Source: Candidatus Acidiferrum sp. (GTDB lineage: Bacteria > Acidobacteriota > Terriglobia > Acidiferrales > UBA7541). Taken from it: a stretch of 33,274 nucleotides of DNA. Within the stretch, counting starts at the first letter, position 1. The number at the start of each line of letters is the position of its first letter. Under the pieces are notes generated by a model that was not told where the DNA came from, did not search any database, and saw nothing but the letters and a program-made list of their open reading frames with translations. Shown piece by piece: positions 25,633-33,274 of this stretch. The stretch spans positions 1-33,274 of the forward strand of contig DASSYL010000585.1 of assembly GCA_035703315.1 (NCBI GenBank). Direction: 5' to 3'. The position numbers and the translations under genes were made by a program.

Positions 25633-26235
25633 CTAGTTGGGGCGCACAATATGTACATTAAAGGACTGCGCCGCTGCCCGCAGCCGCCGCACCACTTCGC
25701 TCGGCCAAAGCGTTTCGCTCAGCAGCGTTACCCAGCCGTCGTCCAGTTCGCAAATGGCACAGAACAAATAGCGTCGGTAAGCACCTTGATAGGCGTCCAC
25801 GCCGCGGCTGGAAAGCTGGCCCCCCAACCCGGCGTCCTCCTCCTTGGCGCGCTCACCGGCACGCAACCCAAACGTTTCCCCCGCAAACCGCTGCAGAAGC
25901 TGCTGCAATTGCTCTTGCGGAGGCCGAGGAATCTCGAGGCTGCGCGATCCCGTTTCGTGAAACTCAATCTCGTGGCTGGCGCAAAACTCGCGGACGCGCT
26001 CCAGATGACTGAAAAAGTCCAGTACCAGGGTTTCAGCGTTGGCAAGCAGCGGAAACGTAGCCGCCCAAAATTCCGCGGCTTCCCTGCCGCGCACAGGTTC
26101 GCGGCTTTCCGTTTCGAGTAATTCGAGCCCCACGGCCTTGACGTCCACACCCAGATCGAGCGCCTGCACATCCAGCGAAAACGGCGGCAAGTCCAGCACA
26201 TCGTCCGGCGTCGACCCGTTTGCGGGACCGGTCAT
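25633..26235 (-). CDS. Hypothetical protein
   Basis: 200-aa ORF with ATGA overlap with the upstream gene; no motif recognised. Confidence 0.75.
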   Translation of the reverse strand: MTGPANGSTPDDVLDLPPFSLDVQALDLGVDVKAVGLELLETESREPVRGREAAEFWAATFPLLANAETLVLDFFSHLERVREFCASHEIEFHETGSRSLEIPRPPQEQLQQLLQRFAGETFGLRAGERAKEEDAGLGGQLSSRGVDAYQGAYRRYLFCAICELDDGWVTLLSETLWPSEVVRRLRAAAQSFNVHIVRPN

Positions 26236-26789
26236 TCTTCGTTTTCCGCTTCCGGAAATTTTGCGCGAAAATCCGGCGCCTGTTTGCGCACTTCCAGCCA
26301 GTCAAAGAAGGCGTCCGGGTTCTCCAGCCAGATGCGAAACCAGCTGGCGATTTCTTCCTTTTCGTCGCGCTTATGGGGTTCCACCTTCCGGTTCCGCGCG
26401 ATCATTTCCGCGCGGCGCTTGCCCAGGCGCGCTATTTCCATCACTCGATCGGAGGCGGCTTTTTCCTCGTGCGCGCGGAAGCGCCGCAGCAGTTCGTCGA
26501 GGCGCATCAGACTGACTTCCGCGTCGCCCAATGTCTTGAAATGCAGCAGGTCTTCGAATTCTTCCTCGAACTGGTCTTCGGCCTCCTCCTGTTGGGTGAG
26601 CGCCACCTTCCACCCTGCCGTCTCCAAGACTTCGATGATGTAGTCGGTGCCGGTCTTCCCTTCGGCGCCGTGGTCAGCCAACAGCTTTCGGCGCAGCTGC
26701 TCAATCTCCGCCGGCGTCCACTTTTCCGCGCCGATCGCCGCGGCGGCGCGCAAGATCATAGCCTTCTTGGTGTGCAGAGCTTCGGTCAT
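26232..26789 (-). CDS. Hypothetical all-alpha protein
   Basis: 185-aa ORF with ATGA overlap with mltG; C-terminal EIASWFRIWLENPDAFFDWLEVRK. Confidence 0.78.
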   Translation of the reverse strand: MTEALHTKKAMILRAAAAIGAEKWTPAEIEQLRRKLLADHGAEGKTGTDYIIEVLETAGWKVALTQQEEAEDQFEEEFEDLLHFKTLGDAEVSLMRLDELLRRFRAHEEKAASDRVMEIARLGKRRAEMIARNRKVEPHKRDEKEEIASWFRIWLENPDAFFDWLEVRKQAPDFRAKFPEAENEE

Positions 26790-30983: not shown

Positions 30984-31292
30984 TCAGTCCAGGTCGAAAT
31001 CGCGGATGGGTTTTCCGGCGGGCGCGTCCTTGGCTTTTTTCATGGCCTCTTCGAATTTTTTGGCGAGGATGTCTTCCTTATTGGTTTCCTGGAACCAGGA
31101 GTCGGCGAACTTGTCTTCGCGCTGGCGCTGCTGTTCTTGCAGGATACTGGACGCCTGGGTCAGGTCCACGTCGGGGCCTTTTTTGGGCGGCGCTTCGTGG
31201 GAGAGCACTGCGCCAAAAACGGGATCGACCACCAGTTTGGCCTGGCAGCAGGGGCACGTCACGTTGAGGTTGTCGGTGCCGCGTTTGCTCAT
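30984..31292 (-). CDS. Small hypothetical protein (CPCC motif plus coiled coil)
   Basis: VTCPCCQAKLVVD, charged helical C-half, ends KPIRDFDLD; TACAAT 6 nt before ATG 31292. Confidence 0.8.
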   Translation of the reverse strand: MSKRGTDNLNVTCPCCQAKLVVDPVFGAVLSHEAPPKKGPDVDLTQASSILQEQQRQREDKFADSWFQETNKEDILAKKFEEAMKKAKDAPAGKPIRDFDLD

Positions 31293-31514
31293 GGGGCCAT
31301 TGTACGACTGGTGGGGCAATGAAGAAAGCGGGCGGTGGCCGATTTCTCGACCGAGTGCTGCTGCTCCCGAGAGACGGATGGCTCTAAAGGAGTTAGTGGG
31401 GCTTTGCCGGGTGTACCGACACACTTCCATTGAACGTAAAATCGCCCCCAGTCCCCGAACCGCCAAAAAGAGAACGGACAGAGAAACCCGAAACAACCCG
31501 AAGACAACCCAAAG

Positions 31515-31539
31515 CCAAGGTTCACAAACCGAACCTGGG
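31515..31539 (-). terminator. Probable terminator after the PIN/TRAM gene
   Basis: AGGTTC/GAACCT stem (31518-31536) followed on the minus strand by U/G-rich sequence. Confidence 0.4.
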
Positions 31540-31549
31540 GCAGCCAGCG

Positions 31550-32647
31550 TTACTTGGTGGGGTCGGGATAGAGGGAGCGGCCGGGGCCGGGTTCGGTTGC
31601 GCGGGCGGAGCGGCCTGCGGCTGCGGATTGACGAAGCGGAGGAGGAGTATCCTGGCGGTCATCGATGCGGCCGAAGATCATTTTGCCGGCGGGGGTCTGG
31701 TGGACGGAGGTGACGAGGATGTCCACGGTTTTGTTGATGAGGCGGCGGGCGCCGTCGACGACGACCATGGTGCCGTCTTCTAGATATGCGACGCCCTGAT
31801 TGACTTCCTTGCCTTCGCGGAGAATGAAGACGCGCATGCCTTCGCCGGGAAGAACAGCGGGGCGCAAAGCGTTAGCGAGAAGATTGATATTGAGAACGCT
31901 GATGCCCTGGACGCTGGCGACTTTGTTGAGATTGAAATCGTTGGTGACGATTTTGGCGTGAAAGCGGAGGGCCAGTTCGACGAGCTTGCGGTCGACATCG
32001 CCGGTCTGGCCGGGAATGTCTTCGATGATGCGGACTTCGTGGGATTGCAGCTTCTGGATGCGCTGCAGGACTTCGAGGCCGCGGCGGCCGCGCTGTCGGC
32101 GGAGACTGTCGGGCGAATCGGCGATGGTCTGAAGTTCATGCAGGACAAATTGAGGAACCAGCAGCGGCCCATCGAGGAAATGGGCTTCGCAAATGTCGGC
32201 GATGCGGCCGTCAATGAGGACGCTGGTGTCGAGGAGTTTGCCGTCGGCGTGAACGGAGGGAGCGCCGGGGCGAAGTCCGAACAAGGCATTGAGCCAACTC
32301 GTCTTGAGCGACCCAAATTTGCGCGAGCCGAGTACGACGCCGGTGTAGCCGAAGGCCAGCAGCGAGGCGTACTCGAAGAAGGATTTGGTGGATTCCGGCT
32401 GCGAAGTGCGGGCGATGATGGCGGAAACAAGCAGCGCGGCTAGCGCGCCGAGAGTGCCACCAATAGCACCGCCGAGAAGCACTGGAGAAGCGGAGCGTTT
32501 AAGGCGATGTTCGATGATGAAAATTACGAGCGCGAGACCGAGACCAACCGCGGCGGCGGACCAACTGTGAAGGCCGAAGGGTGCGAGGCTGAGAGCGATC
32601 GCAGCAGCGGCGGCCGCGAGAGAACATCGAAGCAGCCAAAGATTCAT
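31550..32647 (-). CDS. Membrane-anchored PIN/TRAM-domain protein (YacL family)
   Basis: About 4 TM helices; PIN motifs LDTSVLIDGRI, VLHELQ, TNDFNLNK; TRAM motif GKEVNQGVAYLEDGTMVVVD; start set at ATG 32647. Confidence 0.92.
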   Translation of the reverse strand: MNLWLLRCSLAAAAAAIALSLAPFGLHSWSAAAVGLGLALVIFIIEHRLKRSASPVLLGGAIGGTLGALAALLVSAIIARTSQPESTKSFFEYASLLAFGYTGVVLGSRKFGSLKTSWLNALFGLRPGAPSVHADGKLLDTSVLIDGRIADICEAHFLDGPLLVPQFVLHELQTIADSPDSLRRQRGRRGLEVLQRIQKLQSHEVRIIEDIPGQTGDVDRKLVELALRFHAKIVTNDFNLNKVASVQGISVLNINLLANALRPAVLPGEGMRVFILREGKEVNQGVAYLEDGTMVVVDGARRLINKTVDILVTSVHQTPAGKMIFGRIDDRQDTPPPLRQSAAAGRSARATEPGPGRSLYPDPTK

Positions 32648-32761
32648 GTCACGCGAAAAGCGGGATGAATCGGAATTCAACGCGAGGTTCTGCCCTGAAT
32701 GGGCGGTATCGGGAGATCTAGACGCCAGTGGCGCCTCAGGTTCGGGCAAAGTGCGGTTCAT

Positions 32762-33066
32762 ATTCAGTGTCAGGACTTCTCTTCCCTGTGCCCAGAGAAG
32801 AAGCCCTGCCAGCACAACGTAGCCGTTTCAAGGGTTGTAAGACAAACCTACTAACGTTGCACCGCAAGGGTTTTGTAAAACCAACCTTTTAACCCTGAAC
32901 GCCTGCGACCTTTCAGCGCGGAGTTGCTGAGTGCAGCGTGTGATGAAGCCACAAGAACCCCGGCACCTTGTAGATCGTGTAGCACTGCAAAATCGATACC
33001 GCGATCCGCCGGGGCCGCGAACAGAGGTGGCCTTGGCGGGTAACTCAACAGCCTGACATGCCCCTG
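32762..33066 (-). ncRNA. Candidate large structured RNA or leader, family unrecognised
   Basis: Closing stem 33058-33052/32774-32768 enclosing four hairpins, two with GNRA loops; G-U pairs consistently favour the minus strand; promoter directly upstream. Confidence 0.6.
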
Positions 33067-33072
33067 AATTCT

Positions 33073-33101
33073 TATATACGCCTCGAGGCGGTGGGCGTCA
33101 A
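33073..33101 (-). promoter_or_regulatory. sigma70-like promoter
   Basis: TTGACG (33101-33096)-N17-TATATA (33078-33073), downstream of the alr stop. Confidence 0.6.
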
Positions 33102-33137
33102 TACGCGCGAGCAAGACGAGCAAGCCGTGAGGGGTGT

Positions 33138-33272
33138 TTAAGAGACGTAAATGCGTGGGACGCGGGCGCTGACGGCACAAAGCAGATCGGAGGTGACGGT
33201 GCCGATGCTGCGCGCGACGAGGTTGGCGGCGAGGACATTGCCATTGCCATCGGGGCCGTAAACAGTGGCGAT
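33138..33272 (-). CDS. alr: Alanine racemase family protein, C-terminal 44 aa (5'-truncated, not in the ORF track)
   Basis: Hand translation IATVYGPDGNGNVLAANLVARSIGTVTSDLLCAVSARVPRIYVS* matches the Alr C-terminus (GTIxYE..C....RVPR.Y). Confidence 0.8.
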   Translation of the reverse strand: MATVYGPDGNGNVLAANLVARSIGTVTSDLLCAVSARVPRIYVS

Positions 33273-33274
33273 AT

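What the first reader, a model, noticed from the sequence alone, without database searches (positions are those of the whole stretch)
32641..33101. Large, strand-specific structured RNA transcribed directly 5' of a membrane-bound PIN/TRAM RNase gene
Seen in sequence: the ~490 nt gap between alr and the YacL-like gene holds a promoter (TTGACG-N17-TATATA) followed by nearly continuous minus-strand pairing. A closing helix UGUCAGG/CCUGACA (33058-33052/32774-32768) encloses four parts: a ~125-nt rod (33050-33043/32932-32925, 33033-33027/32952-32946, 33016-33008/32964-32956, 33006-33002/32977-32973), a GAAA hairpin (32919-32905), a second rod (32899-32827) and a GGCA hairpin (32808-32771). A further domain follows at 32750-32689. 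Deviations from perfect inverted repeats are mostly G-U on the minus strand (A-C on plus), as expected from RNA-level selection. It lacks tmRNA, RNase P and SRP signatures. Established: PIN domains are RNases, TRAM domains bind RNA, and YacL-family proteins are poorly characterised. Inference: this could be a ~300-nt ncRNA that partners the membrane PIN/TRAM protein (conceptually like the OLE RNA-OapA membrane RNP), an RNAP-binding 6S/Ms1-like RNA, or a large regulatory leader.
Basis: partly seen in the sequence, partly recalled or inferred. Interest (0 to 1): 0.82.

Follow-up and report, generated by a model that had tools for sequence, protein, structure and literature searches.

The report
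Repeat-inflated mRNA leader, not large RNA
The proposed 300-base RNA is most likely just the front end of the neighbouring gene's messenger RNA: a roughly 100-base leader, predicted to fold over its own ribosome-binding site in related soil bacteria, that has been tripled here by inserted hairpin repeats.

Summary
The helices can be drawn and the promoter is conserved (67 of 71 orthologous loci), but the '300-nt ncRNA' does not hold. The region folds no better on the minus strand (z -1.8) than on the plus strand (z -3.2). The 'further domain' lies inside the PIN/TRAM gene, whose start is ATG 32761. Genus orthologues have leaders of median 102 nt; 305 nt is the longest of 52 measured. Rod 2 is two copies of a dispersed palindrome (46 genome hits, 0 in the control), which also sits in this genome's real 6S RNA on another contig. 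The closing helix is missing or broken in all 18 other long leaders. What is conserved in part of this Acidiferrales genus is a ~103-nt leader whose last stem is predicted to pair UUUU with the Shine-Dalgarno GAGG (fourU-like; single copy, always before the PIN/TRAM gene; no Rfam hit). In the window both arms survive, but a 143-nt insert separates the Shine-Dalgarno from the ATG and the stem is predicted not to form, so this copy is likely decayed or rewired. Modest novelty: an undescribed leader motif and repeat family.

The parts
33138..33274 (-). 3' end of alr (alanine racemase), stop at 33140-33138
   Evidence: Ends RVPRIYVS*; orthologue in G014 hits PF00842 and PF01168; the 45-aa window piece alone had no Pfam hit
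33073..33101 (-). Likely promoter: -35 TTGACG, 17 nt, -10 TATATA; predicted +1 near 33066
   Evidence: Pattern TTG[AG]C-N17-19-TATA in 67 of 71 protein-selected genus loci; missed by the strict sigma-70 scan; start site inferred
32762..33066 (-). 305-nt 5' leader of the PIN/TRAM gene (composite)
   Evidence: Longest of 52 measured genus leaders, median 102.5
33006..33039 (-). Ancestral hairpin P2 (predicted)
   Evidence: Kept in the three-sequence consensus fold; homologous P2 is 85% paired with 5 of 7 pairs showing double changes in 42 short leaders; model R1 hits 33067-32960 weakly, E 0.14
32985..32995 (-). Conserved anti-Shine-Dalgarno arm CGATTTTGCAG (four U)
   Evidence: Present with its partner in 33 of 71 genus loci, never the partner alone; 11-bp stem
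32919..32962 (-). Degenerate repeat-derived hairpin inside the loop of the ancestral stem (foot 32962-32956 with 32925-32919)
   Evidence: Foot keeps 5-7 of 7 pairs in 19 of 19 long leaders; the same position holds recognisable repeat copies in relatives, E down to 1e-7
32906..32916 (-). Ancestral Shine-Dalgarno arm CTGAAAGGTCG, now 143 nt from the start codon
   Evidence: Directly followed by one base and ATG in 17 of 19 long leaders, not in the window or G014; 10 of 11 pairs possible with the anti-SD arm, predicted probability 0.00
32869..32898 (-).
   Evidence: E 0.012 with a profile built only from other contigs
32831..32853 (-). Dispersed palindromic repeat, copy 2 (3' half of rod 2)
   Evidence: E 0.052, same profile
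32771..32808 (-). Strong but strain-specific GGCA hairpin
   Evidence: z -4.2; absent in G014; replaced with 32775-32871 by 18 nt in contigs of runs X3-X5, and four pairs broken without compensation in a second X5 contig (read by hand)
31550..32761 (-).
   Evidence: PF01850 and PF01938; ATG after the SD motif is in frame and open in 38 of 40 loci, and the window/G014 extension differs mostly at third positions, 15 of 30 changes; membrane location inferred from the hydrophobic N-terminal part

Best explanation
This is most likely the 5' untranslated leader of the PIN/TRAM (YacL-like) gene, made from a conserved promoter, in which an ancestral ~103-nt leader predicted to hide its ribosome-binding site has been inflated to 305 nt by inserted palindromic repeats. 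Ancestral mechanism (inferred): transcription starts near 33066; two variable hairpins P1 and P2 are followed by an 11-bp stem in which UUUU pairs with the GAGG just before the AUG, through four G-U wobbles, holding translation of the membrane RNase low until the stem opens. Heat (fourU-type thermometer) is my single most likely trigger (about 0.4), against a fixed damper (0.35) or a protein- or ligand-driven switch (0.25). In relatives, repeat hairpins entered the loop of that stem and left it intact. In the window's lineage a further insert landed between the Shine-Dalgarno and the AUG (shown), and the stem is predicted no longer to form, so the control is likely lost or altered here (about 0.6). 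Shown: synteny, promoter conservation, start codon, length series, repeat identity, separate 6S locus. Inferred: start site, folds, regulation.
For: Leader lengths 52-305 nt, median 102.5, n=52 of 71 loci; series of 90-115, 146-157, 202-221 and 305 nt among 61 distinct motif-bearing leaders. Both stem arms co-occur: 33 both, 0 3'-only, 3 5'-only with a derived 3' arm, 35 neither. All 11 pairs possible in 41 of 42 short leaders, mean pair probability 0.91 at 37 C; 10 of 11 in 19 of 19 long ones; probability 0.00 in the two whose SD is cut off from the AUG. Short leaders fold better on the sense strand (mean z -1.85 versus -0.47), the window's does not (-1.13 versus -2.37). Model R1 finds one hit per genome in 21 of 60 genus genomes, each at the PIN/TRAM gene positions, and 0 of 40 outside the genus. 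Repeat: 46 hits at E<=0.1 against 0 in the reversed genome, 44 of 46 intergenic. RNA-library contigs of close relatives pass the proposed 3' end, one reaching 32710.
Against: The SD stem has no double change in any of 11 pairs, so covariation does not support it; its 5' arm is invariant in A2 by selection, and kin are not independent. For the whole short-leader structure, double-change counts (12 pairs, 30 cells) are matched by the slid controls (12 pairs, 26-28 cells); only percent paired and the score exceed them. One short leader with a broken pair (L078) also has probability 0.00, and several others are low. Predicted opening needs 65-75 C. The motif is missing in 35 of 71 genus loci. No raw RNA reads: start, ends, strand and level are untested.
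Confidence: 0.75

Rival explanations
1. The expanded leader has been rewired in the window's small lineage into a new functional fold (H1 with or without H3 and a long-range closing helix) that controls translation or mRNA stability of the PIN/TRAM gene.
For: H1 keeps 8 of 8 pairs in L207 and 6 of 8 in G014; H3 keeps 9 of 9 in G014 through one-sided changes; closing helix probability ~0.57 in the window; the 5' end is also complementary to the start-codon region in window and G014 (seen in sequence).
Against: 0 of 52 consensus pairs show a double change and H2-H4 are not in the consensus; only three close sequences; H4 and the GGCA hairpin are broken or deleted in near relatives; minus-strand z not significant.
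Confidence: 0.12
2. The conserved element is recognised as sequence (a protein site on RNA or DNA, possibly for the TRAM domain itself), and the hairpin is incidental.
For: Nine of 11 pairs never vary and wobbles are not strengthened; an alternative 6-bp helix with the upstream bases has at least 5 of 6 pairs in 38 of 42 short and 19 of 19 long leaders; the 5' arm persists in the window although the stem is predicted not to form.
Against: The alternative helix has near-zero predicted probability in most leaders; perfect 11-bp complementarity over the SD and a compensating extension in long leaders are simpler to read as pairing; no binding data.
Confidence: 0.08
3. A discrete ~300-nt ncRNA that binds the membrane PIN/TRAM protein (OLE-like) or RNA polymerase (6S/Ms1-like).
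For: Conserved promoter; leader sequence of close relatives is present in contigs of three RNA libraries; no Rfam match.
Against: Not conserved in length or closure; DNA search finds it in 1 of 60 relatives, without the middle part; no terminator-like site; genuine 6S lies elsewhere; RNase P lies on another contig.
Confidence: 0.04

Closest known systems
FourU RNA thermometers (Salmonella agsA, SPbeta blyA; PMC10586365 passages, PMC3185406 abstract start)
   Same: 5' UTR with upstream hairpin(s) and a last stem in which four consecutive U are predicted to pair with the Shine-Dalgarno through G-U wobbles
   Different: Pairs GAGG rather than AGGA; gene is a PIN/TRAM protein beside alr, not a known heat-shock gene here; temperature response untested; in the window the SD is 143 nt from the AUG
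REP and TIR-type small palindromic repeats (PMC3733652, passages and section 16)
   Same: Short (about 26-35 bp) palindrome, tens of copies, intergenic, singles and dimers, patchy among species
   Different: No GTAG or CGTC end tag seen; only 1 of 39 placed copies between convergent genes; not the repeat flanking the Y1 transposases found in G020 and G118
6S RNA (RF00013) / Ms1
   Same: Rod-like folds can be drawn; own promoter
   Different: No Rfam match at this place; the 6S homologue is on contig C318 and at separate loci in 5 of 5 relatives
OLE RNA with OapA (recalled, not read)
   Same: Lies next to a gene for a likely membrane protein
   Different: No conserved large fold, no length conservation, no Rfam match

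Membership tests
fourU RNA thermometer | Four consecutive U predicted to pair with the Shine-Dalgarno in a 5' UTR stem | tested here: met
   Short leaders: 41 of 42 with all 11 pairs
fourU RNA thermometer | The sequestered SD lies at initiation distance from the start codon (window copy) | tested here: not met
   SD arm 32916-32906, ATG 32761; stem probability 0.00. Met in relatives.
fourU RNA thermometer | Stem opens in a physiological temperature range | tested here: inconclusive
   Mean SD unpaired 0.03 at 37 C, 0.21 at 65 C, 0.46 at 75 C; the validated blyA thermometer has an overall melting point of 69.4 C (PMC10586365)
fourU RNA thermometer | Heat-induced translation in a reporter, lost on U-to-C stabilisation | not testable with these tools
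   Needs a reporter assay
6S RNA (RF00013) | Match to the family model | tested here: not met
   No hit at E<=10 over 32500-33274; homologue found on C318:5446-5695
OLE, Ms1, RNase P, SRP, tmRNA and other Rfam 15 families | Match to a family model | tested here: not met
   0 matches among 4227 families; RNase P on C390
Large conserved ncRNA | Conserved length, closing helix and covarying pairs across orthologues | tested here: not met
Large conserved ncRNA | Discrete, abundant transcript with its own 3' end | tested here: inconclusive
   Only contigs were available; they run into the coding sequence; no terminator-like site
REP (GTAG/CGTC-tagged) | Short multi-copy extragenic palindrome | tested here: met
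   46 hits, 44 intergenic, control 0
REP (GTAG/CGTC-tagged) | Terminal GTAG or CGTC tag | tested here: not met
   Not in the seed alignment of 23 copies (by eye)
REP/TIR repeats | Copies flank a RAYT/TIRYT transposase gene | tested here: not met
   PF01797 in 2 of 5 genomes, none found in G000 (76% complete) or G014; their flanking inverted repeats are other sequences; one copy lies ~800 nt from one such gene with another gene between

The most novel reading that the evidence does not exclude
A previously undescribed translational switch controls a membrane PIN/TRAM RNase in this Acidiferrales genus: an invariant UUUU/GAGG stem with a competing upstream helix, opened by heat or by the TRAM domain binding its own mRNA. 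A new untagged palindromic repeat repeatedly enters the loops of structured RNAs (this leader, 6S RNA) without breaking them, and in the window's lineage has rewired the leader into a new long-range fold.
Probability: 0.15. Interest if true: 0.6.

Novelty: new member of a known kind. Interest (0 to 1): 0.3.

Why it matters
It removes a false large-ncRNA candidate and leaves two smaller testable things. First, a compact leader motif gives a handle on how the poorly known YacL-like PIN/TRAM RNase is regulated, and would be a fourU-type thermometer candidate in Acidobacteriota. Second, a lineage-restricted repeat gives a natural series (about 100, 155, 220, 305 nt) showing how hairpin insertions inflate structured RNAs; it also hid this genome's 6S RNA from an Rfam search.

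Tried and rejected
Rfam at gathering and E<=10: nothing. 6S search of the own genome missed the repeat-expanded copy; found by synteny. Strict promoter scan found no site. RNAalifold on 42 short leaders recovered only the SD stem, not P1 or P2; P1/P2 were drawn by me. NCBIfam gave no family over its cut-off. RNA runs X1-X6 held only 5-8% of the words; X1, X2 showed nothing on the leader, X6 nothing at all, and X5 covered the leader but not 32300-32728: contigs cannot rank levels, so none of this is used. X3 and X5 contigs stop near 32743, about one word length past a strain branch point, so I do not read it as an RNA end. Link of the repeat to Y1 transposases: not found. Single origin of long leaders on the coding-sequence tree: rejected, leaving repeated insertion or exchange of leaders open. 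My rod-2 register and first repeat-foot register were mis-set and are not used (foot redone). A look for the 16S rRNA 3' end in the genome found nothing, so the SD is named from general knowledge. Earlier scan notes: nothing in three look-ups. Paper searches listed no description of this leader or repeat; PMC2864571 main text has no PIN, TRAM or alanine racemase mention (supplements not read, and they may list such a motif).

Full report
Setting. The interval lies on the minus strand between alr (orthologue hits PF00842 and PF01168) and a gene with PIN and TRAM domains. The closest named relatives of that protein are Acidobacteriota records, several labelled Candidatus Acidiferrum/Acidoferrum or Acidiferrales. 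The genome is 76% complete. The gene was found in 88 of 121 genus genomes and 94 of 101 class genomes; an alr-like end lies upstream in 62 of 71 genus loci examined (one more locus was too short and dropped).

Observation check. The five listed helices are complementary as stated, and Rfam has no match. But the fold is not strand-specific: z -1.81 on minus and -3.15 on plus for 33058-32768, -2.35 and -2.12 for the whole finding. The gene starts earlier than assumed. Orthologues begin MSR or MNR right after a GAGG-containing motif; that ATG is in frame and open in 38 of 40 loci, and the window and G014 differ mostly at third codon positions over the 38-codon extension. The window's ATG is 32761, so 32750-32689 is coding.

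Promoter and length. The promoter pattern occurs in 67 of 71 protein-selected genus loci. Leaders could be measured in 52; the median is 102.5 nt and the window's 305 nt is the longest. A DNA search with the whole interval matched 1 of 60 relatives (G014), in two pieces with the middle missing. A 20-nt motif search added 7 of 260 genus genomes and 29 metagenome loci. Among 61 distinct complete motif-bearing leaders, 42 are 90-115 nt and 19 are 146-305 nt.

The conserved element. Short leaders end in an 11-bp stem that pairs UUUU with GAGG three bases before the AUG. Counted without selecting on the motif, 33 of 71 loci have both arms, none has the 3' arm alone, 3 have the 5' arm with a derived 3' arm, and 35 have neither. 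Nine of 11 pairs never vary and none shows a double change, so covariation says nothing for this stem. P1 and P2, drawn by me, show double changes in 12 of 14 pairs (3 of 500 shuffles reach this), but slid controls reach similar counts. Short leaders fold better on the sense strand (mean z -1.85 against -0.47). A model built from them hits once in 21 of 60 genus genomes, at the gene positions listed, and in 0 of 40 outside the genus (many hits are training sequences); in the own genome its only hit is 33067-32960 at E 0.14. Four U against the SD is the definition of fourU thermometers (PMC10586365, passages read). Predicted opening is late (SD unpaired 0.03 at 37 C, 0.46 at 75 C; the header mislabels the temperatures, which were 10, 25, 37, 45, 55, 65, 75), but the validated blyA element melts at 69.4 C, so this does not decide. 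An alternative helix with the six bases upstream has at least 5 of 6 pairs in 38 of 42 short leaders, mostly with near-zero predicted weight.

The added sequence. Rod 2 resembles other places in the genome. A profile built from 23 copies on other contigs finds 46 hits at E<=0.1, none in the reversed genome, and scores 32898-32869 and 32853-32831 at E 0.012 and 0.052. With crude gene calls, 44 of 46 are intergenic in a genome about 84% coding; 1 of 39 is convergent (p about 0.05). A strict pattern finds the repeat in 7 of 81 genomes, all in the genus. In long leaders of relatives, clear copies (E to 1e-7) sit in the loop of the SD stem, which keeps 10 of 11 pairs and a mean probability of 0.76. 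Only in the window and G014 does an insert also lie between SD and AUG, and there the stem's probability is 0.00. On a coding-sequence tree the long leaders fall in three groups, two with supported short-leader sisters; a single clade is rejected, p 4e-5 (27 of the 55 rows, group named after seeing the tree, many partial rows). Repeated insertion or exchange of leaders both remain possible. No mobiliser was found (PMC3733652 passages and section 16 read).

The closing helix is absent in 17 and broken in 1 of 18 other long leaders; H1, H2 and H4 fail outside the nearest kin. Among the three closest sequences H1 and the ancestral P2 are kept, H2-H4 are not, and 0 of 52 pairs show a double change. 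Contigs of close relatives in RNA libraries X3-X5 (three study codes, same year and habitat, possibly one campaign) cover the leader, replace 32775-32871 by 18 nt, and continue past 32768, one to 32710. They show presence only; DNA may be in those libraries. No terminator-like site lies at the proposed 3' end.

6S and others. 6S-like matches lie on other contigs in 5 of 5 relatives (E 8e-8 to 3e-6, just under the cut-off). The own copy is C318:5446-5695, with the same repeat in its apical arm; Rfam scores it as 6S at E 0.028 with a 69-nt insertion. RNase P is on C390.

Verdict. A composite 5' leader: real promoter, ancestral fourU-like motif, repeat-derived expansion, and some coding sequence. 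Not a large ncRNA. My paper searches (listings only unless noted) showed no account of this motif or repeat; OLE and Ms1 features are recalled, not read. The genome marked unpublished (G089) enters only genome tallies. Interest 0.3.

Noticed in passing
G000 contig C318:5446-5695 (locus L239): The genome's 6S RNA homologue, 250 nt, carries the dispersed palindrome in its apical arm, which likely explains why the Rfam genome search missed it.
   Followed up: yes
G000, 46 sites; G014, G020 and four other genus genomes: Untagged ~26-35 bp palindromic repeat family, intergenic, often in pairs, weakly biased away from convergent gaps and toward the sense strand; mobiliser unknown.
   Followed up: partly
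L157-L164 and 63 motif-less loci among L074-L153, 270 nt upstream of the PIN/TRAM match: Other genera of the family have AU-rich leaders with repeated TTCATA on the sense strand (82 against 7 reverse-complement): a possible second, protein-bound regulatory motif on the same gene.
   Followed up: partly
L050, L051, L055, L056, L059, L060, L069, L128, L139: A different clade of the genus has a GTG or ATG start preceded by a related-looking stem over GAGG with a C-A mismatch (by eye), possibly a diverged form of the same leader stem.
   Followed up: no
L224, L225, L226 (G014, G118, G177): RNase P RNA matches span 575-610 nt against a 367-position model, with several inserted hairpins unrelated to the repeat.
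   Followed up: no
L240, L241, L242, L246 (G020, G118): Y1 transposase genes flanked by 30-38 nt inverted repeats (TIRtron-like).
   Followed up: partly
window 31470-31535: Low-complexity GGGTT/TTTC-rich tract and a weak terminator-like site just after the PIN/TRAM gene.
   Followed up: no
window 30984-31292 (-), 26232-26789 (-), 25633-26235 (-): Three ORFs downstream with no Pfam family, one with a CPCC motif just before folP.
   Followed up: no
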